Source: a virus | Taxonomy: Duplodnaviria > Heunggongvirae > Uroviricota > Caudoviricetes | Length of the DNA: 24,148 bases | Strand: one strand, 5' to 3' | IMG/VR virus record: IMGVR_UViG_2778261504_000003 | Location: 1-24,148 of that record | Shown: piece by piece, positions 1 through 6,647 of the stretch | Layout of the letters: each line of letters begins with the position of its first letter | Numbering within the stretch: the stretch's first letter is position 1 | The notes under the pieces: generated by a model | The model's input: the letters and a program-made list of their open reading frames with translations, nothing else | Databases searched by the model: none | What the model was told of the DNA's origin: nothing | Translations under genes and position numbers: made by a program

Positions 1-350
1 ACAGCGTTCTGTACTTCAGGGGCCAGCTTGTCAAAAGTGACGTTCATCGGATCGGATTCAGTCTCAACCGGGACAAAGGAAGCAGACTCCTCATCCCAGC
101 GGTTTTCCTGCATATATTCAGCATCCCAGGAATCGAGGGCAGGGCGGGGTATACCGGGTTTATCCTCGCAAACAAGAAATTTATAAGCGCAGTCCTGAGC
201 AGCCGGATATTGCTCCAGGAATTGCCAGGTAAATTTGGCACGGGCGCGGCGTTCGTCACCGGCTTCAATGGCAGTGGCTACAGCAATTGCACCTTCTTCC
301 TTTATTGCCTGTTCGTCCGGAATGGCGGCGCAAATAAAGACTTTACTCAT
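1..350 (-). CDS. Early-left operon protein, partial (C-terminal part continues beyond window start); unknown function
   Basis: Minus-strand ATG at 348-350 (reverse complement reads MSKVFICAAIPDEQAIKEEGAIAVATAIEAGDERRARAK...), GAGG about 9 nt upstream, open to the window edge. Lies downstream of ydfD in the same operon direction. Not in the ORF track because no stop is inside the window. Confidence 0.6.
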   Translation of the reverse strand, partial: MSKVFICAAIPDEQAIKEEGAIAVATAIEAGDERRARAKFTWQFLEQYPAAQDCAYKFLVCEDKPGIPRPALDSWDAEYMQENRWDEESASFVPVETESDPMNVTFDKLAPEVQNA

Positions 351-443
351 TTTGTTTTAACCTCATGACATATTTAAGGATGAACAAATCCCTGCCATTG
401 CTGGCATATAAGAATGAAATCGGATGTTTATTACGGAACTGTT

Positions 444-635
444 TTAAAGACCTGCCGGGATTTCGTTATTATCCTGGTGAATAACTTTATCGACCGGGTA
501 ACAGTTACCGGGAATTTTCTGTTCGGTTGCTGCAGTCACACACTCCTGCATTGTCCTGTGAACACTGACTGCAATATCAACTGGCTCTCCGGAAACAAGA
601 AAAACTGTCAGAACAAGTGCAAATGCTGTATTCAT
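444..635 (-). CDS. ydfD: YdfD-like small membrane/lysis protein (63 aa)
   Basis: Internal Met of track ORF 444..689 gives MNTAFALVLTVFLVSGEPVDIAVSVHRTMQECVTAATEQKIPGNCYPVDKVIHQDNNEIPAGL, matching my memory of E. coli Qin YdfD. Its ATG overlaps the dicB stop (ATGA), implying translational coupling. Confidence 0.75.
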   Translation of the reverse strand: MNTAFALVLTVFLVSGEPVDIAVSVHRTMQECVTAATEQKIPGNCYPVDKVIHQDNNEIPAGL

Positions 636-820
636 TGCCAGCATCCTTTTTGTATCGGACGTAAACGGGCCAGCATTGAAAGAATGCATATTTTATTTAA
701 TAGCTCCCGTTCGTGTTTTCTCTTGTTAATGGCATCTTCAGTAAATACAGGGTTACTGATAGTGACACCAATTTCAAAACAACCTTCAGACGTATTAACG
801 TTTGGTAATAACGTTTCCAT
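632..820 (-). CDS. dicB: Cell division inhibitor DicB (62 aa)
   Basis: Internal Met of track ORF 632..925 gives METLLPNVNTSEGCFEIGVTISNPVFTEDAINKRKHERELLNKICILSMLARLRPIQKGCWQ, near-identical to remembered E. coli K-12 DicB. Lies about 170 nt downstream of DicF as in the K-12 dicB operon. Confidence 0.85.
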   Translation of the reverse strand: METLLPNVNTSEGCFEIGVTISNPVFTEDAINKRKHERELLNKICILSMLARLRPIQKGCWQ

Positions 821-989
821 TATCGCGTCCTCAACAATGAATTTTGTGATGCGGTGCCTGGTGCCTCCAGGTGACGTTAACCAGTTAACAATTAACGCCG
901 GATACAGAGAATCCACCCATAACACTGTTTTTGGTTTTAACTGTTCCGCGTGCGCTCAGCCGCATTCACCGCATCACAAAATTCACTTT

Positions 990-1047
990 AAAAAGGGCGG
1001 CAGAGCAGTCACGGAGTAAAACTGATACCGCCAAACGTCACCAGAAA
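990..1047 (-). ncRNA. dicF: DicF small regulatory RNA (ftsZ-targeting sRNA of the dicB operon) with its 3' stem-loop and U-tail
   Basis: Reverse complement of 990-1047 reads TTTCTGGTGACGTTTGGCGGTATCAGTTTTACTCCGTGACTGCTCTGCCGCCCTTTTT, which matches the DicF sequence as I remember it. It ends in a GGCGG...CCGCC stem followed by a U-run. Position between ydfC and dicB is as in Qin. Confidence 0.85.
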
Positions 1048-1380
1048 ATTGATAACAGAGGGCGTTGCAGCGGGGTTGTCACTTAAGCGTATGGTCAACC
1101 TGACAACCCGGTGTCCTCAACGGGGAAGGAATAACCCCGCCATACTTACCGCCGCGCCATTTCGCGGAGTGCCACAACCGGAAGCGCACGGTCGACGAAA
1201 ATTTAACGACAGGCTATCTATGAACCAACAACCTCGCCGTGCGCTTTCGCGTTATGCTCTGACTTTTCAGAGAAATATCCTTTCAGTAAACTGTCAGTGC
1301 CGGATGTTCACCCGTGTCCGGCGCACGCACTCCATTTCACCCGTGGAGAACTCCTTAATTACCAACCCTCAGGAGGGTGA

Positions 1381-1614
1381 ATGTTAAAATCAACTCTTAT
1401 TGCTAAATGCCTTTATCAAAATCGCATGGTAAGCAGCATTTCAATAGGCGAGTCTGCAGTTAAAAGTATTTTCGAAGAGTACTTTCCCGGGCATGATTTT
1501 AATAAATGGAATACCAAATTACCGCCAGCAGTTTCAACGCGTATTCTGAAAGCAACTGAAAGAGCAAGTACAATTCGCGTTAACTATTTCATTAAAGATT
1601 TGTGGGATCTTTGA
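1381..1614 (+). CDS. Hypothetical protein (77 aa), antisense to the early-left operon, inside the AT-rich insert
   Basis: ATG at 1381 directly preceded by AGGAGG (1371-1376). A 77-codon ORF in AT-rich DNA is unlikely by chance. Its 3' end overlaps the 3' end of the convergent 135-aa ORF by 23 nt. No recognisable family. Confidence 0.4.
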   Translation: MLKSTLIAKCLYQNRMVSSISIGESAVKSIFEEYFPGHDFNKWNTKLPPAVSTRILKATERASTIRVNYFIKDLWDL

Positions 1615-1999
1615 TATCCACAGAGCCTAAAGTATGTGCATATGGATGTGCTATTGTGCGCCCTCGCAGATTTGCATCATTTTCTAAATTCACTGAACGA
1701 AACAGGGCATCAACAAGGCTCTGTACAATGCAAAGGCAATCGAAGACTGTCGCCGTTTCTGTTTTGATTGATGAAAGAACATGGCCATTCACGCAAACAG
1801 AAATTACCCGTTTATTAACATCGCTTTCCTGCTTTTGATTATCAGAACCATATAGCCCAGAAAAAGCATTGCGCACATTACGAACCATATTATCGATGGT
1901 TTCTTTTTTGGTGTATGCCGGGTCAATTTTCACCAGACTATCACCGAGAGTCGTTGCAGCAATTGTCTGGATTTCTTTTGGTAAATCTTTAAATTCCAT
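1592..1999 (-). CDS. Hypothetical protein (135 aa) inserted in the dicB operon between ydfC and DicF
   Basis: Minus-strand ATG at 1999 with GAGG 6 nt upstream, 22 nt after the ydfC stop and in operon orientation. AT-rich relative to flanks. No recognisable family. Confidence 0.5.
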   Translation of the reverse strand: MEFKDLPKEIQTIAATTLGDSLVKIDPAYTKKETIDNMVRNVRNAFSGLYGSDNQKQESDVNKRVISVCVNGHVLSSIKTETATVFDCLCIVQSLVDALFRSVNLENDANLRGRTIAHPYAHTLGSVDIKDPTNL

Positions 2000-2021
2000 T
2001 ATTAGCCTCGTTGGTTAGCTA

Positions 2022-2240
2022 TTAACGCGGGTATGTAATCATTCTGGCAATGCTTAATGCCGCTGCTTTTTCCAGCCTGGTGATATCCTGCTCCAGAGCG
2101 GACAGATTTTCAGCCTGCTTAGCCCTGGCTTCATTGGCCCATTTCAGATCCTGCGCTGCATTAATTTTCTGGCGCATCCACTCATAAAGTTCATCATCGG
2201 TATAGTCTGGCGCGATGATGACGGGTTCTCGTTTCTGCAT
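2022..2240 (-). CDS. ydfC: YdfC-like protein (72 aa)
   Basis: MQKREPVIIAPDYTDDELYEWMRQKINAAQDLKWANEARAKQAENLSALEQDITRLEKAAALSIARMITYPR matches remembered Qin YdfC in sequence and length; position after ydfB. Confidence 0.8.
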   Translation of the reverse strand: MQKREPVIIAPDYTDDELYEWMRQKINAAQDLKWANEARAKQAENLSALEQDITRLEKAAALSIARMITYPR

Positions 2241-2662: not shown

Positions 2663-2695
2663 TAGACAATGGAACATAAAGTTTTATTTGTGAGG

Positions 2696-2725
2696 ATAAA
2701 AAAAGCGCCAGGGAGGCGCTTTTTT
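2696..2725. terminator. Bidirectional intrinsic terminator between the repressor gene and the dicB-operon promoter
   Basis: A-run, GCGCC, AGGGA loop, GGCGC, then TTTTTT. Reads as hairpin plus U-tract on both strands. Confidence 0.6.
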
Positions 2726-2733
2726 CATGTAAC

Positions 2734-3144
2734 TTATTGTTTTTGAATATCATTGATTATGTCGTATACATCGTTTTTTAGAAGATCCATTTCATGAAGA
2801 ATGCTTTTTGTGTGCATGATTAGTCTCAGCTTTTCCGTTTCTGGCAACTGATTAAAAAGGGACAATAGCGCCTTTTCTTTGTCGTCAAGCTGGATTAGTG
2901 GTGGTGCATCTTCTTCCTTTGAATGTTCATTTAGCGGCATAAAAAACCAATGTTCTGGTTTTCCTGTTACCGCGGCAAGTCTTTTTAATCTTTCTCCGCT
3001 GGCAATGGTTTCTCCTGTTGCCCACTTACGCACAGCGGTATGGGACAGCATAACCTTTTTAGCCAGACCGGCTAACGACCAGCCATGTTCGCTCATTGCT
3101 TGCCGAACTCTCTCAGCAAATATTGGATGGTTTATTTTACTCAT
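2734..3144 (-). CDS. Prophage repressor, DicA-like (XRE-family HTH, 136 aa)
   Basis: N-terminal HTH (GWSLAGLAKKVMLSHTAVRKWATGE) and C-terminal LLSLFNQLPETEKLRL motif resembling DicA (LLELFNALPESEQ). Divergent from the Cro-like gene, upstream of ydfA as dicA is in Qin. Confidence 0.85.
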   Translation of the reverse strand: MSKINHPIFAERVRQAMSEHGWSLAGLAKKVMLSHTAVRKWATGETIASGERLKRLAAVTGKPEHWFFMPLNEHSKEEDAPPLIQLDDKEKALLSLFNQLPETEKLRLIMHTKSILHEMDLLKNDVYDIINDIQKQ

Positions 3145-3229
3145 TTTTTAAGTATACAACCAAAGGTTTCACCAATCAGCAAAACTATAGGTTTTGTGTT
3201 GAAACTTATAGTTTTTGATGGTAGCGTAG
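3145..3229. promoter_or_regulatory. Divergent promoter/operator region between the repressor and Cro-like genes
   Basis: AT-rich 85-nt intergenic region with an imperfect inverted repeat AAACTATAGG ... CTTATAGTTT (3182-3215) and GTTTCA / TGAAAC half-sites. Confidence 0.5.
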
Positions 3230-3256
3230 GTGAAATTAATAGTACTGGTGGAAAGT

Positions 3257-3532
3257 ATGAGTAATCAAATTCACGATAAGATCTCTAAAAAAATGTCGAA
3301 AACTGACATTGGCAAACACTTTGGCATTAGCTCCCAGGCCGTAGGCAAGTGGTTCATTAAAGGCAAGGTTCCTGCTGAACGCGTGTCGTCACTCTGTGCA
3401 TTACTGAATTGGGAAATTACTCCCCACGAACTTCGCCCTGACATTTATCCCAACCCAACAGATGGACTACCTTGTGAAAATAAGTGTATGTCGAATGAAT
3501 CACTGGCGGTGAACAATGATATTCACTCCTGA
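3257..3532 (+). CDS. Cro/DicC-like HTH regulator
   Basis: HTH near the N-terminus (KTDIGKHFGISSQAVGKWF), divergent from the repressor. Start is ambiguous: GTG 3230, ATG 3257 or ATG 3293. Confidence 0.7.
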   Translation: MSNQIHDKISKKMSKTDIGKHFGISSQAVGKWFIKGKVPAERVSSLCALLNWEITPHELRPDIYPNPTDGLPCENKCMSNESLAVNNDIHS

Positions 3533-4037
3533 GCAGGCTCGCGAGGCTCTGGATGCCTGGGTATGCCGACCAGGAATGACGCAGGAGCAGGCGACGATAT
3601 TAATCACGGAAGCATTCTGGGCTCTGAAAGAACGCCCGAACATCGATGTTCATCGCGTCACGTTTGATGATGGCGCGGTTGATCAACGGGCGCTGGGCGT
3701 TAACAGGGTGAAGATATTCGAACGCTGGAAAGCTATCGACACCAGGGATAAGCGTGAAAAATTCACGGCGCTGATTCCGGCAATTATGGAGGCTATCCGG
3801 ATCAGCGATTTCAGGTTGTATTGTGAAATTACTGACGGAAAAAGCATTACGTACATGATCGCCGGGTTAAACAAAGAATATGGCGATGTGGTGGAGTCCG
3901 GGCTGCTTTTTGCGGATCCAGCTGTTGTGGAACGTGAGACTGACGAGCTTATAGAAAAAGCCATTGCTTTCAAGCGTGCGTATCGTCAGCAATATCAACA
4001 AAAAGTCGGATGGAATTATGAGTCTTCTTTTTGCTGA
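3516..4037 (+). CDS. YdaT-like protein (CII-position regulator of Rac/Qin-type phages), 173 aa
   Basis: Immediately follows and overlaps the Cro-like gene. Contains REKFTALIPAIMEAIR, which resembles the YdaT family as I remember it. Family assignment tentative. Confidence 0.5.
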   Translation: MIFTPEQAREALDAWVCRPGMTQEQATILITEAFWALKERPNIDVHRVTFDDGAVDQRALGVNRVKIFERWKAIDTRDKREKFTALIPAIMEAIRISDFRLYCEITDGKSITYMIAGLNKEYGDVVESGLLFADPAVVERETDELIEKAIAFKRAYRQQYQQKVGWNYESSFC

Positions 4038-4983
4038 ACGCCCACTGGTTATTAACACGCAGCTGGCGATGAAAATTGGTCTGAACGAAGCCATCGTGTT
4101 GCAGCAGCTGCATTACTGGTTGAGAGATACCGGTTCCGGCATGGAATGTGATGGTGTTCGCTGGATTTATAACACAACAGAACAATGGCTGGAACAGTTC
4201 CCGTTCTGGTCAGAGTCAACGTTAAAACGCGCATTTGCAAGTCTGAAAGCGCTGGGGCTTTTGCGTTGCGAAAAGCTCAACAAATCAAAGCGTGACATGA
4301 CTAATTTTTACACGATTAATTACGAGAGCGAGCTTTTAGATGGTGGCAAAGTGAGCGAATCCATCAGGTCAAAATGCGCCGCTCCATCAGGTCAAAATGA
4401 CACGATGGAAGAGGCCAAAATGACACGCTCCATTGGTTCAAAACGACACAATGTCATCGGGTCAAAATGGCCTGATGATCTTACAGAGAATACAACAGAG
4501 ATTACTACAGAGAATAAAAACACTTCTCGTCCGGAAGCTTTGCAACCGGACATGCAGACGGCTGAACAGGATTTTTTGACCCGACATCCTGACGCGGTTG
4601 TGTTCAGTGCGAAAAAACGCCAGTGGGGCAGCCAGGAAGATTTAGCGTGTGCGCAGTGGATCTGGGGACGAATCGTGAGTCTTTACGAGCAGGCTGCCAG
4701 CGATGATGGCGAAATCATGCGACCGAAAGAACCCAATTGGACTGCATGGGCCAATGATGTGCGCACAATGCGGATGCTGGATGGCAGAACTCACAGACAA
4801 ATTTGCGAAATGTTTGGTCGGGTGCAGCGGGATCCCTTCTGGGTAAAAAACGTCATGAGCCCGTCAAAGCTTCGCGAAAAATGGGATGAGCTGGTTATTC
4901 GTCTGGGGCGTTCGCCTGTACAGCGTTGCGTGAATCACATTTCTGAACCGGACACCGAAATTCCGCCGGGGTTCAGGGGGTAA
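4015..4983 (+). CDS. Phage replication initiation protein (N-terminal replisome-organizer-like wHTH; C-terminal DnaT-like region)
   Basis: LVINTQLAMKIGLNEAIVLQQLHYWL...WIYNTTEQWLEQFPFWSESTLKRAFASLKALGLL is typical of phage replication initiator N-domains. Position after cro/cII analogues. Start at ATG 4015 (GGATGGAA upstream) preferred over 3964. Confidence 0.65.
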   Translation: MMSLLFAERPLVINTQLAMKIGLNEAIVLQQLHYWLRDTGSGMECDGVRWIYNTTEQWLEQFPFWSESTLKRAFASLKALGLLRCEKLNKSKRDMTNFYTINYESELLDGGKVSESIRSKCAAPSGQNDTMEEAKMTRSIGSKRHNVIGSKWPDDLTENTTEITTENKNTSRPEALQPDMQTAEQDFLTRHPDAVVFSAKKRQWGSQEDLACAQWIWGRIVSLYEQAASDDGEIMRPKEPNWTAWANDVRTMRMLDGRTHRQICEMFGRVQRDPFWVKNVMSPSKLREKWDELVIRLGRSPVQRCVNHISEPDTEIPPGFRG

Positions 4984-5025: not shown

Positions 5026-5427
5026 ATGGGGGCTATTTATACCGAAGAACAGCGGGAAAGATTACAGCGTCACATCGTTGACCTTGTACGTAAAAACGGG
5101 CGTATGACAATGCCACAACTGGCATCGACAACATATGCTTCACATGATTCCATTCGCCGGTACCTGAAGATGCTGGTGAGCCAGGGCGAAGTGTATGTTG
5201 TCAGCGGAAAAGGGGTGTTCCTTTCAGAGGGAGTTTACCGTGAATGGCTGGCAAGTTCGGCAAGAAAAGCAAGGGTTATCCGCAAACCAGCACAAAAACA
5301 GGGTAAAGCCGGAGCACAACCCTACGACCGGCACCAGAACATAATTTGCCGTGAGTGCCGTCAGAGTGAGGTTATGCAGCGTGTACTGGCGTTCTATCAG
5401 GGAGATTTTCAGGAGGTGATGGTGTGA
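5026..5427 (+). CDS. Hypothetical early protein with a probable winged-helix DNA-binding N-domain (133 aa)
   Basis: AGGAGA 7 nt upstream of ATG. TMPQLASTTYASHDSIRRYLKMLVSQGEV resembles a wHTH recognition helix. Basic, Cys-containing C-terminus. Confidence 0.6.
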   Translation: MGAIYTEEQRERLQRHIVDLVRKNGRMTMPQLASTTYASHDSIRRYLKMLVSQGEVYVVSGKGVFLSEGVYREWLASSARKARVIRKPAQKQGKAGAQPYDRHQNIICRECRQSEVMQRVLAFYQGDFQEVMV

Positions 5428-5723
5428 GGGTAAGGGTTTATATCGCTGGTCCGATGACCGGGTATAAAAATTTCAACCGTGAGGCGTTCCACAATGCGGA
5501 AGAGGAACTGAAACGGGAAGGGCATACAGTCTTAAACCCGGCAGTACTTCCAGACGGGCTGACACAGCCACACTACATGGATATTTGCATGGCAATGATT
5601 CGTTGTGTGGATGCGATTTACATGCTGAAAGGCTGGCAGTGGTCAACAGGCGCTAAGGCAGAACTGGCACTGGCGGAGAAGCTGGGGCATGCAGTTATTT
5701 TCCAGGAGGCAAACAGTGAGTAA
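5424..5723 (+). CDS. DUF4406-family protein (nucleoside 2-deoxyribosyltransferase-like fold), 99 aa
   Basis: N-terminal VYIAGPMTG motif and ...NPAV... WQWSTGAKAELALAEKLGHAV pattern characteristic of DUF4406. GTG start overlaps the upstream stop (GTGA); AGGAGG upstream. Confidence 0.7.
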   Translation: MRVRVYIAGPMTGYKNFNREAFHNAEEELKREGHTVLNPAVLPDGLTQPHYMDICMAMIRCVDAIYMLKGWQWSTGAKAELALAEKLGHAVIFQEANSE

Positions 5724-6396
5724 TCAATGGCGACCAGATATTTGCCCTATAACCGGACGTGCATTTTTCATGTGGATTGAGCATCCGAAATTGGGAAATG
5801 TACCGACGTACGGTGGCCCATTAGACAGTTACACCATTCCAACAAGGGACAGCGATGGTGAGTTTTCATGTGAGCGTTACGATCATGATTTCGGCGGTTG
5901 GGTAGAAAGCGAATGTCTTGGGTTATATCTGATTGATGATAAAGAGCAATGCAGAGTCTACGAACTGGAGGAACGCATTGCAGGGCTGGAGACTAATCTT
6001 GCTGCGCTTGCGGCGGAGAATGCGGGGCTGAATAAATTTATCGTACAGAGTTGCTACGTGTTTGATGGCGAGCAGGATGAACTATCTGATGCGTATATCT
6101 GTGCAATAGACGGAAGGATGCCGCAAACCCCGGCTACAGATGCTTTCCTGGCTGATGTACGTGCGGAAGCACGCAACGAGGGGATTAACTATACCGCCAG
6201 CCGTCTTGCTGCTGCGTTCAATCACGGATTTATCAATAAGTCTTTACGTGAAGTTTTCGACGTTACGCGCATGATTCTGTCAGCGAAAGAAGAGTTGGCT
6301 AATGAACCGCACCCGATTGATGGTCTGTCCGGTGAATATGCGGAGAAATCCCTTGAAGAATGGGCGGAACAGATTCGCAAAGGAGACAACCAGTGA
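5716..6396 (+). CDS. Hypothetical early protein with a central coiled-coil (possibly Ead/Ea22-like)
   Basis: GTG at 5716 with AGGAGG 6 nt upstream, overlapping the previous stop. Central heptad-like segment ELEERIAGLETNLAALAAENAGL. Family assignment uncertain. Confidence 0.55.
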   Translation: MSNQWRPDICPITGRAFFMWIEHPKLGNVPTYGGPLDSYTIPTRDSDGEFSCERYDHDFGGWVESECLGLYLIDDKEQCRVYELEERIAGLETNLAALAAENAGLNKFIVQSCYVFDGEQDELSDAYICAIDGRMPQTPATDAFLADVRAEARNEGINYTASRLAAAFNHGFINKSLREVFDVTRMILSAKEELANEPHPIDGLSGEYAEKSLEEWAEQIRKGDNQ

Positions 6397-6647
6397 GTGA
6401 GTCAAAATGCCAAATTAATGGCAACAAGATAGAACCATGTGCAGCACTGGCAAAATCCCTTGAGCATGATGCTGAATACACGACGCGAAAAGGTCTGCTG
6501 ATATACAAAATCTGGAATGAGAGTTTAACTCGCGGCCCTGATTTGGTGATGTTGCGTTCCGGTGAATTTTCTAAATCACCAGTGCGGGTTTCATTTTGTC
6601 CGTTCTGTGGTGAAAGTCTGAAAACGTGGGAGAACAGAAATGAATGA
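6393..6647 (+). CDS. Hypothetical small protein with Cys pairs (putative zinc ribbon)
   Basis: GTG start overlapping the upstream stop (GTGA), AAGGAGA upstream. CQINGNKIEPC and CPFCG pairs. Confidence 0.5.
   Translation: MSESKCQINGNKIEPCAALAKSLEHDAEYTTRKGLLIYKIWNESLTRGPDLVMLRSGEFSKSPVRVSFCPFCGESLKTWENRNE

What the first reader, a model, noticed from the sequence alone, without database searches (positions are those of the whole stretch)
1048..2021. About 0.95 kb insertion in the dicB operon between ydfC and DicF: AT-rich two-ORF cassette plus GC-rich structured spacer
In Qin, ydfC and DicF are as I remember only about 100-200 nt apart. Here they are separated by about 975 nt. The insert holds a 135-aa ORF in operon orientation (good RBS, 22 nt after ydfC), a convergent 77-aa ORF with a near-perfect AGGAGG RBS, and a 330-nt hairpin-dense non-coding stretch. 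Positions 1381-2000 are visibly AT-rich while flanks are about 50% GC, suggesting horizontally acquired cargo. Neither protein resembles a family I know. The dicBF operon is itself a host-manipulation and superinfection-exclusion locus, so cargo inserted here is a plausible site for an undescribed exclusion or abortive-infection module. This is the most likely novel element in the window.
Basis: partly seen in the sequence, partly recalled or inferred. Interest (0 to 1): 0.8.

Follow-up and report, generated by a model that had tools for sequence, protein, structure and literature searches.

The report
Paired antisense genes in prophage sieB slot
The extra DNA between ydfC and DicF is a 634-bp cassette of two real, uncharacterised, tail-to-tail overlapping phage genes that travel together across many enterobacterial prophages and sit where phage lambda keeps its exclusion gene sieB, so they are a good but unproven candidate for a new prophage-expressed function with its own built-in antagonist.

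Summary
Compared with K-12 Qin, the extra DNA is exactly window 1368-2001 (634 bp), not about 975 bp. The "GC-rich structured spacer" (1048-1367) is the native Qin ydfC-dicF untranslated region.

The cassette holds two real genes that overlap by 23 nt at their 3' ends:
- ORF135 (1592-1999, operon sense).
- ORF77 (1381-1614, antisense).

Neither gene matches Pfam, NCBIfam, PADLOC or any solved fold. ORF77 models with pLDDT 96.7.

ORF77 and the C-terminal domain of ORF135 form a conserved pair. In 96 of 98 loci from at least 9 genera they lie convergently near the repressor, at the head of the early-left operon. In 85 loci the overlap is again 23 nt.

The DNA flanking the ORF77 start in other genera is homologous to the stretch just upstream of lambda/P22 sieB. 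sieB is likewise antisense and convergent with the first pL gene.

In E. coli the slot is polymorphic. A constant N-domain is joined to different C-terminal modules, each with its own unrelated antisense ORF (77, 63, 69 or 80 aa).

Best reading (confidence 0.4): a cognate antagonistic pair toggled by the lysis-lysogeny switch. Function is untested.

The parts
1368..2001 (.). Two-gene cassette: the exact indel relative to K-12 Qin (634 bp).
   Evidence: blastn of the window against NC_000913: window 329-1367 and 2002-2607 are collinear with K-12 at 96.5-96.9%, and nothing in K-12 corresponds to 1368-2001. The cassette alone is found in 646 of 5426 complete E. coli genomes.
1592..1999 (-). ORF135, in operon (dicBp/early-left) sense. 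It has two modules: an N-domain (about residues 1-55, window about 1835-1999) and a C-domain (about residues 62-135, window 1592-1816), joined by a disordered linker.
   Evidence: ORF call. phrog_1363 at 3.8e-47, with other PHROG families matching the N-terminal 55-70 residues and phrog_23433 matching the C-terminal part. AlphaFold model pLDDT 71.9: helical hairpin 8-50, low confidence at 52-62, beta-hairpin plus helices at 65-111. The C-domain family has 118 clusters, all Enterobacterales among those named by a source.
1381..1614 (+). ORF77, antisense to the operon. A compact five-helix protein of unknown function.
1592..1614 (.). 23-nt overlap of the two convergent coding regions at their 3' ends.
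   Evidence: Coordinates. The same 23-nt stop-to-stop overlap occurs in 85 of 96 paired loci from many genera.
1296..1367 (+). Leader/flank of ORF77, also present in K-12. It contains a strong hairpin (about 1297-1325), a 10-nt direct repeat TTCACCCGTG (1307 and 1336), and a pyrimidine arm CTCCT (1351-1355) complementary to the SD AGGAG. It is a diverged version of the element that flanks the sieB slot in other phages.
   Evidence: Alignments A5 and A8. Direct repeat D5. RNA fold z = -2.4 for 1296-1395. The homology of the E. coli version to the lambda/P22 element is weaker than for the other genera, so this is an inference.
1264..1292 (+). Weak sigma-70-like promoter candidate for ORF77 (TTTTCA, 17 nt, TAAACT).
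   Evidence: Own hexamer scoring: 8 of 12 matches. It is conserved upstream of all four E. coli antisense ORFs. It was not reported by the stricter consensus scan. Prediction only.
1048..1367 (-). Native Qin ydfC-dicF untranslated region (DicF precursor). It is structured and is not part of the cassette.
   Evidence: 96.5% identical to K-12. The K-12 gap is 340 nt. Fold z = -2.9. [quoted passage not shown]
995..1046 (-). DicF small RNA.
   Evidence: Rfam RF00039, 76.7 bits, E = 2.3e-16, full-length match.
2022..2240 (-). ydfC, the gene immediately upstream of the cassette.
   Evidence: 98.6% identical to K-12 YdfC by tblastn. Annotated as ydfC in near-identical genomes.

Best explanation
The cassette is a cognate pair of antagonistic phage genes in the prophage position that lambda and P22 use for sieB.

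Shown:
- ORF77 is a real, conserved, antisense-encoded small protein.
- It is almost always convergent with, and overlapping, a gene that encodes the "VNG" C-domain. In E. coli that domain is the C-terminal half of ORF135.
- The pair sits at the head of the repressor-controlled early-left operon.
- The DNA flanking the ORF77 start is homologous to the DNA flanking the sieB start in lambda and P22.
- In E. coli the slot is polymorphic. The N-domain is constant, and the C-terminal module and the antisense ORF change together.

Inferred:
- ORF77 is transcribed from its own promoter while the early-left operon is repressed, that is, in the lysogen, as sieB is.
- When the operon fires on induction or infection, two things happen. 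Convergent transcription and antisense RNA damp ORF77 expression. The sense-strand protein is also made and neutralises ORF77, or is neutralised by it, through direct binding.
- Which partner is the "effector" and which the "antidote" is not known, nor is the target. The two candidate roles are exclusion of other phages and protection from a toxic early protein.
For: Real genes:
- PHROG families for both ORFs.
- 55-72% identical 77-aa homologs in many genera.
- pLDDT 96.7 for ORF77.

Pairing:
- 96 of 98 ORF77 loci have a convergent C-domain gene, and 85 of them have a 23-nt overlap.
- About 30 distinct ORF77 variants are all paired.
- Loci chosen through the C-domain alone (Citrobacter, Erwinia, Providencia) all carry ORF77.
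- Adjacent locus tags confirm pairing in Klebsiella and Xenorhabdus.

Position:
- The pair lies directly downstream of CI-type repressors in Serratia, Dickeya, Erwinia and Citrobacter.

sieB slot:
- Lambda sieB is antisense to the pL operon and ends stop-to-stop against N.
- The 35-nt core GTGCCTGTCTTTT(A/C)ACCAC.TCAGGC..GGTGGT and the hairpin that follows it are shared between the lambda/P22 sieB upstream region and the ORF77 upstream region.
- In P22 the mapped sieB promoter and RNA start lie immediately next to this core.

Own promoter:
- An extended -10-like TGnTATYCT sits 31-34 nt before the ATG in nearly all lineages outside E. coli.

Precedent for control by the opposite strand:
- The P22 sas antisense RNA switches sieB translation (PMC12197685, PMC7067206).

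Polymorphism in E. coli:
- Four sense/antisense combinations occur at one slot: 135/77, 201/63, 212/69 and 179/80.
- They share about 90% identical N-domain DNA and a shared distal flank, but the antisense ORFs are unrelated.
- They occur in 646, 8, 594 and 387 genomes respectively.
Against: - There are no expression data. In the E. coli window the extended -10 is not conserved (TGGAGAACT replaces TGGTATCTT), and only a weak promoter candidate exists.
- There is no evidence of physical interaction. AlphaFold-multimer was not available.
- The C-domain occurs without ORF77 in the rare ORF201/ORF63 allele. An ORF77-like gene stands alone in a non-phage context in Psychrosphaera. The partners are therefore not strictly obligate.
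- Neither protein resembles SieB, Esc, any toxin, antitoxin or defence protein.
- Net charge of ORF77, counted by eye from the sequences, is not conserved between genera, so no nucleic-acid-binding role is suggested.
- Adjacent genes co-inherit anyway, so co-occurrence alone does not prove a functional link.
Confidence: 0.4

Rival explanations
1. Two independent accessory genes (morons) happen to be neighbours. ORF135 is an ordinary early-left accessory protein. ORF77 is a separate prophage-expressed cargo in the sieB slot. There is no functional interaction between them.
For: - The early-left region is a mosaic of small genes of unknown function.
- The same flank element precedes other, unrelated antisense ORFs that have no evident fixed partner: 66 aa in phage Evi, 147 aa in Citrobacter and 107 aa in Erwinia.
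- A solo ORF77-like gene exists in Psychrosphaera.
- Stx-phage relatives of ORF135 share mainly its N-domain, and no gene is annotated in the short gap downstream of them.
Against: - 96 of 98 loci keep the pair, usually with an identical 23-nt overlap, across at least 9 genera at only 30-45% C-domain identity.
- In E. coli the antisense ORF and the sense C-terminal module are exchanged together.
Confidence: 0.25
2. The pair is a toxin-antitoxin-like addiction or abortive-infection module. One product is a growth inhibitor and the other its antidote, and the pair stabilises the prophage or kills infected cells.
For: - It is a tightly linked pair of small proteins.
- The neighbourhood hosts toxin-antitoxin and defence genes: PaaA2-ParE in L017 and the PADLOC candidate PDC-S42 in Serratia L006.
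- The modular N-terminal additions (ClpX-type zinc finger, helical N-domain) are reminiscent of modular toxin-antitoxin components.
Against: - The genes are convergent, not co-transcribed.
- There is no Pfam, NCBIfam or PADLOC match to any toxin or antitoxin family.
- The fold searches returned no convincing match of any kind, and no DNA-binding antitoxin fold appeared among the listed hits.
- Either partner can occur without the other. Loci with one partner decayed exist: L100, L096 and L014.
Confidence: 0.1
3. The main effect is in cis on the dicBF operon. A convergent transcription unit placed between ydfC and dicF attenuates or gates read-through into DicF and DicB by transcriptional interference or double-stranded RNA processing. 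On this reading the proteins are secondary.
For: - The cassette lies between the promoter-proximal genes and dicF/dicB, which are toxic and under layered control (10.1101/2023.04.14.536235).
- DicF is processed by RNase III and RNase E from the polycistronic RNA.
- Convergent overlapping transcripts would create RNase III substrates. This step is an inference.
Against: - The same pair occurs in prophages that have no dicF or dicB downstream: Serratia, Dickeya and Erwinia (Rfam finds no DicF in L008, L020 or L019).
- Both proteins are conserved at the amino-acid level, and ORF77 has a confident fold. The coding function is therefore under selection.
Confidence: 0.1
4. One or both ORFs are chance reading frames in AT-rich inserted DNA.
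For: They are short ORFs, annotated only as hypothetical proteins.
Against: - Both belong to recurring phage protein families.
- ORF77 keeps its length and 20 invariant residues across 30 aligned sequences from many genera and models at pLDDT 96.7.
- The C-domain family has 118 clusters with a clear motif.
Confidence: 0.02

Closest known systems
sieB / esc / sas of phages P22 and lambda (superinfection exclusion B with self-protection)
   Same: - The gene is antisense to the early-left operon and convergent with the first pL gene (lambda N and sieB end stop-to-stop).
- The DNA flanking the gene start is homologous.
- sieB is a prophage-expressed gene whose action is countered, when the phage itself grows, by a phage product (Esc) and by an antisense RNA from the opposite strand (sas) (PMC12197685, PMC7067206).
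   Different: - ORF77 has no Pfam match at all, to a SieB family or any other, and is a 77-aa protein. That it is soluble is judged from the sequence.
- The putative antagonist is a separate convergent gene, not an in-frame internal product.
- ORF77's ATG lies where P22 has the sieB -10 and leader, so the promoter must differ.
- No exclusion phenotype is known.
Pore-forming colicin operons: an SOS-repressed colicin gene with a convergent immunity gene expressed from its own promoter (established knowledge, recalled; not tested here)
   Same: - A repressed "effector" gene is followed by a small gene on the opposite strand that has its own promoter-like element.
- The effector has a constant N-terminal part and a variable C-terminal part, and each variant has its own small partner.
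   Different: - There is no sequence or fold similarity.
- The products are phage early proteins, not secreted bacteriocins.
- Effector and immunity roles are hypothetical here.
Prophage morons / accessory loci encoded antisense to lytic genes (for example STMMW_20121 of ST64B; bstA of BTP1 next to the repressor)
   Same: - Antisense orientation within lytic operons is described as characteristic of accessory loci (PMC7067206).
- The position is next to the immunity region.
- The composition is AT-richer than the flanks.
   Different: - A classic moron has its own promoter and terminator and acts alone. Here no terminator was found, the 3' end overlaps the neighbouring gene, and the neighbour co-varies with it.
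Type II toxin-antitoxin modules
   Same: A tightly linked pair of small proteins on a mobile element. Modular additions occur on one partner.
   Different: The orientation is convergent. There is no homology to known toxins or antitoxins. No autoregulatory DNA-binding domain was detected.

Membership tests
DicF RNA / dicBF operon of Qin-type prophages (context) | DicF covariance-model match, flanked by ydfABC upstream and dicB-ydfD downstream. | tested here: met
   Rfam RF00039 at 76.7 bits. Pfam DicB at 1.7e-37, DUF1391 (YdfA) and DUF1482 (YdfD). Collinear with K-12 outside 1368-2001.
SieB superinfection-exclusion protein family | Sequence membership in the SieB protein family. | tested here: not met
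   ORF77 and ORF135 give no Pfam or NCBIfam hit of any kind at E <= 0.1-1. PHROG families 10348 and 1363 have unknown function.
SieB superinfection-exclusion locus (positional/regulatory kind) | The gene is antisense within the early-left operon, convergent with the first pL gene, and flanked at its 5' side by the conserved element found upstream of lambda/P22 sieB. | tested here: met
   Lambda annotation. Element alignment A8. P22 annotation. The match is clear for the Serratia, Citrobacter, Erwinia, Proteus and Providencia versions. The E. coli window version is diverged, so its homology is weaker.
SieB superinfection-exclusion locus (positional/regulatory kind) | Expression from the prophage and exclusion of superinfecting phages. 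Self-protection by a phage product or antisense RNA. | not testable with these tools
   Needs transcriptomics and phage challenge. Only promoter-like sequences were predicted.
Known anti-phage defence systems (PADLOC-DB 2.0) | A profile match of any component to a known or candidate defence protein. | tested here: not met
   No PADLOC hit for ORF77, ORF135, the stand-alone C-domain (P0089), the zinc-finger fusion (P0175), ORF201, ORF63 or the 212- and 179-aa sense proteins. ORF69 and ORF80 were not scanned against PADLOC.
Type II toxin-antitoxin | A co-directional bicistronic operon. | tested here: not met
   The genes are convergent with a 23-nt 3' overlap.
Type II toxin-antitoxin | A recognisable toxin fold or family, and an antitoxin with a DNA-binding domain. 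| tested here: not met
Moron (independent prophage transcription unit) | Own promoter. | tested here: inconclusive
   An extended -10-like TGnTATYCT is conserved 31-34 nt before the ATG outside E. coli. In the window there is only a weak TTTTCA-17-TAAACT candidate, and the stricter scan found nothing upstream of ORF77.
Moron (independent prophage transcription unit) | Own terminator and compositional difference from the flanks. | tested here: inconclusive
   GC is 37-43% against 47-55% in the flanks. No intrinsic terminator was found downstream of ORF77, and terminator-like sites in the region are at the level expected by chance.
Polymorphic effector-immunity layout (colicin / polymorphic-toxin type) | A constant N-terminal region, a variable C-terminal module, and a distinct small gene adjacent to each variant. 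| tested here: met
   Four E. coli alleles share the N-domain (about 90% DNA identity, window 1862-1999). They have different C-terminal modules and mutually unrelated antisense ORFs of 77, 63, 69 and 80 aa.
Polymorphic effector-immunity layout (colicin / polymorphic-toxin type) | Toxic activity of the C-terminal module and specific neutralisation by the cognate small protein. | not testable with these tools
   No homology to known toxin or immunity domains. Needs expression experiments.

The most novel reading that the evidence does not exclude
The sieB-equivalent slot of lambdoid prophages in Enterobacterales carries a family of polymorphic, unrelated-in-sequence effector/antidote pairs. Each pair has a sense gene with a variable C-terminal module expressed from the early-left promoter, and a cognate antisense small protein expressed from the prophage. 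On this reading the pairs mediate type-specific competition between related phages or prophages (exclusion with built-in self-immunity). ORF77 with the VNG domain would be the most widespread pair, with an orphan fold.
Probability: 0.22. Interest if true: 0.8.

Novelty: new variant of a known kind. Interest (0 to 1): 0.55.

Why it matters
- **Prevalence.** At least four alternative cassettes occupy this slot. Each is found in 8 to 646 of 5426 complete E. coli genomes. Enterohaemorrhagic O157:H7, O26, O111 and O145 strains are among the carriers of the ORF135/ORF77 cassette. Every component is annotated "hypothetical".
- **Regulatory logic.** The slot is the one lambda and P22 use for sieB, one of the oldest known prophage exclusion genes. 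The logic there is prophage expression, countered by the phage's own early transcription. Showing that this logic is reused for a set of unrelated protein pairs would extend a classical paradigm. It would also give a rule for finding new prophage-encoded exclusion or counter-exclusion functions from genome layout alone.
- **DicF and DicB.** In dicBF-type prophages the cassette separates the operon promoter from DicF and DicB. It could therefore alter production of a small RNA implicated in cell division and, by my recollection of published work not checked here, in EHEC virulence regulation.
- **Testability.** All of this can be tested with simple cloning, phage plating and RNA-seq.

Tried and rejected
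- **Protein family searches.** Pfam, NCBIfam and PADLOC gave nothing for either protein. PHROGs gave only families of unknown function.
- **Solved structures by sequence.** No hit for ORF135.
- **Exhaustive phmmer with the C-domain.** It found few true clusters. Three repeat-protein hits (P0086, P0092, P0093) I judged spurious from their repetitive sequences.
- **Transposon-like inverted repeats at the cassette ends.** Only an 8-nt TWACCAAC similarity was noted by eye, and the repeat finder reported no terminal repeats. Rejected.
- **The upstream palindrome as an operator shared with the prophage's own immunity region.** The CCAC..GTGG pattern search gave one to three hits per locus. The extra hits that carry the conserved TCAGGC core lie upstream of other antisense ORFs. 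Rejected.
- **A conserved RNA structure for the flank element.**
  - RNAalifold on the gappy alignment recovered only a 4-pair stem with one covarying pair.
  - Single-sequence folds repeatedly show an anti-SD hairpin, but z-scores are -0.3 to -1.9, which is not significant.
  - There is no Rfam family.
  - I kept this only as a tentative idea.
- **The element as the mapped sieB promoter.** Rejected. The P22 annotation places the promoter and RNA start just downstream of it.
- **The stray source label "dGTP triphosphohydrolase" for ORF77.** It is implausible for 77 aa and unsupported by any profile.
- **Literature.** Searches by accession number and gene name found nothing on these proteins.

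Full report
**1. What is in the window**

The dicBF-type operon runs on the minus strand. In transcription order it contains:
- a DicA-like HTH repressor (2734-3144);
- ydfA (2400-2555, DUF1391);
- ydfB;
- ydfC (2022-2240);
- a 135-aa ORF (1592-1999);
- DicF (995-1046, Rfam 76.7 bits);
- dicB (632-820);
- ydfD (444-635).

A 77-aa ORF (1381-1614) lies on the plus strand. It is convergent with the 135-aa ORF and overlaps it by 23 nt. GC falls to 37-43% between 1401 and 2000, against 47-55% in the flanks.

**2. Boundaries**

- blastn shows window 329-1367 and 2002-2607 are collinear with Qin at 96.5-96.9% identity. The only extra DNA is 1368-2001, or 634 bp.
- The "GC-rich structured spacer" (1048-1367) is therefore the native untranslated region from which DicF is processed (PMC5069750). 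It does fold better than shuffles (z = -2.9).
- The junctions are clean and have no terminal repeats.

**3. Both ORFs are real genes without known relatives**

- ORF135 matches phrog_1363, and ORF77 matches phrog_10348. Both families have unknown function.
- Pfam, NCBIfam, PADLOC and PDB sequence searches gave nothing.
- ORF77 has 77-aa homologs at 55-72% identity in Klebsiella, Dickeya, Xenorhabdus, Yersinia, Serratia, Morganella and Salmonella, with 20 invariant residues.
- ORF135 models as two modules joined by a disordered linker (pLDDT 71.9), with no convincing fold match.

**4. A conserved convergent pair**

- In Serratia and Dickeya prophages the ORF77 homolog lies just downstream of the CI-type repressor and antisense to the early-left operon. 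It is convergent with a 77-79-aa gene, again with a 23-nt overlap. That partner is homologous to the C-terminal half of ORF135.
- A profile of this "VNG" C-domain finds 118 clusters. All those named by a source are Enterobacterales. Most are stand-alone proteins of 75-90 aa. Seven carry an N-terminal ClpX-type C4 zinc finger.
- Over all fetched loci, 96 of 98 ORF77 hits have the convergent C-domain gene, and 85 have exactly a 23-nt overlap. The two exceptions are a contig end and a solo gene in a marine Psychrosphaera.
- About 30 distinct ORF77 variants are all paired.
- Loci selected through the C-domain alone (Citrobacter, Erwinia, Providencia) all carry ORF77.
- In Proteus a YdfC homolog precedes the pair.

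**5. The slot is the sieB slot**

- Upstream of ORF77 in the other genera lies a conserved block of about 75 nt. The same block precedes unrelated antisense ORFs: 66 aa in phage Evi, 147 aa in Citrobacter and 107 aa in Erwinia. The ATG is always 31-34 nt after a TGnTATYCT extended -10-like motif.
- The core GTGCCTGTCTTTT(A/C)ACCAC.TCAGGC..GGTGGT, and the hairpin that follows it, are nearly identical to the sequence upstream of lambda sieB and P22 sieB.
- In lambda, sieB is antisense to the pL operon and ends stop-to-stop against N.
- In the curated P22 record, the mapped sieB promoter and RNA start lie just downstream of the core. The core is thus a landmark of the slot rather than the mapped promoter.
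- P22 counters its own SieB by Esc and by the pL-strand antisense RNA sas (PMC12197685, PMC7067206).
- The E. coli version of the flank (window about 1296-1367, also present in K-12) is a diverged form. It lacks the extended -10, and only a weak TTTTCA-17-TAAACT candidate (1264-1292) is seen.
- Because K-12 keeps this flank, and ydfC-like genes are linked to the pair elsewhere, K-12 Qin may have lost the cassette rather than this prophage having gained it. The direction remains unproven.

**6. The slot is polymorphic in E. coli**

Four alleles share about 90% identical N-domain DNA (window 1862-1999) and the distal flank (window at or below 1327). They differ in between:

| Sense gene | Antisense ORF | Genomes (of 5426) |
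|---|---|---|
| ORF135 | ORF77 | 646 |
| 212 aa | ORF69 | 594 |
| 179 aa | ORF80 | 387 |
| ORF201 | ORF63 | 8 |
| empty K-12-type junction | none | 2333 |

The four antisense ORFs are mutually unrelated, and each belongs to its own PHROG family. The layout is a constant N-terminal part, a variable C-terminal module and a distinct small partner. That is the layout of polymorphic effector/immunity systems. The convergent orientation recalls pore-forming colicin operons (established knowledge, recalled).

**7. Interpretation**

What is shown is a conserved, co-varying, convergent gene pair in the sieB-equivalent position. What is inferred:
- ORF77 is expressed from the prophage while the operon is repressed.
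- The sense-strand protein, made on derepression, is its cognate antagonist or target.
- Convergent transcription adds a second layer of control.

I put this at 0.4. The rivals are independent neighbours (0.25), a toxin-antitoxin-like module (0.1), a purely cis effect on DicF/DicB (0.1) and chance ORFs (0.02). No specific activity, such as abortive infection, is supported by any homology.

**8. Verdict**

It mis-sized the element, counted native sequence as part of it, and could not see that it is one allele of a widespread, polymorphic pair system in a classical exclusion slot. I rate it as a new variant of a known kind (prophage accessory locus of the sieB type), with moderate interest (0.55).

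Noticed in passing
window 788-997 (-): The stretch between DicF and dicB gives a sub-threshold Rfam match to STnc100, a gammaproteobacterial sRNA (40.1 bits against a gathering score of 47, E = 1.9e-6). The same match appears in phage Evi (L004 5007-5192).
   Followed up: no
window 2699-2728: AAAAAAGCGCC-AGGGA-GGCGCTTTTTT is a symmetric hairpin with an A-run before it and a T-run after it. It lies just downstream of the DicA-like repressor gene (stop at 2734, minus strand) and looks like a bidirectional intrinsic terminator separating the repressor from ydfA. It was read directly from the sequence and was not listed by the consensus scan.
   Followed up: no
window 1307-1316 and 1336-1345: A 10-nt direct repeat TTCACCCGTG brackets a 29-nt duplication in the ORF77 leader. 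One E. coli variant (L062 and six identical loci) has a single copy, which removes one arm of the strong leader hairpin.
   Followed up: partly
L004 (phage Evi) about 3467-3667 (-); L011 (O157:H7) element at 4415 (+): A second antisense ORF of 66 aa (CxxC...CxxC, zinc-ribbon-like) sits upstream of ydfC behind the same sieB-slot element. It is intact in phage Evi and interrupted by a stop codon in the O157:H7 prophage.
   Followed up: partly
L006 (Serratia) 5713-6636 (-): A 307-aa gene lies between the CI repressor and the ORF77 pair. It matches the PADLOC candidate defence family PDC-S42 (E = 1.2e-85). This is consistent with the neighbourhood being a defence hotspot.
   Followed up: partly
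L017 (E. coli) 2694-3172 (+): A PaaA2-ParE toxin-antitoxin pair is inserted between the DicA-like repressor and ydfA in a prophage that carries the ORF201/ORF63 allele.
   Followed up: no
L015 (Psychrosphaera sp. MAG) 5989-6228 (+): A solo ORF77-like gene (43% identity) lies between a methyl-accepting chemotaxis-type protein and a large glycosidase-like protein (both judged from their translated sequences). It has no C-domain partner and no phage genes nearby.
   Followed up: partly
P0103, P0145, P0166, P0169, P0170, P0174, P0175; L019 4001-4420; L082: Some C-domain proteins carry an N-terminal ClpX-type C4 zinc finger (PF06689) instead of the E. coli helical N-domain. This hints at a link to ClpX adaptor or substrate recognition.
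   Followed up: partly
L019 (Citrobacter) 5089-5532 (-); L021 (Erwinia) 3558-3881 (-): Other cargos sit behind the same element: a 147-aa protein in Citrobacter and a 107-aa protein in Erwinia that looks like a membrane protein from its hydrophobic stretches. Both are antisense in the early-left region and neither has a Pfam match (the Erwinia protein was scanned over its first 60 residues only).
   Followed up: partly
cluster of window ORF77: One public source names the 77-aa protein "dGTP triphosphohydrolase". No profile supports this, and the size makes it implausible. It is probably an annotation-transfer error.
   Followed up: partly
window 3516-4037 (+) and 3230-3532 (+): Divergent from the repressor are a Cro-type gene and a gene that RefSeq annotates as a YdaT-toxin-family protein in a near-identical genome. 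Replication genes follow. The rest of the window looks like an ordinary lambdoid prophage with long same-strand ORFs through to the window end.
   Followed up: no
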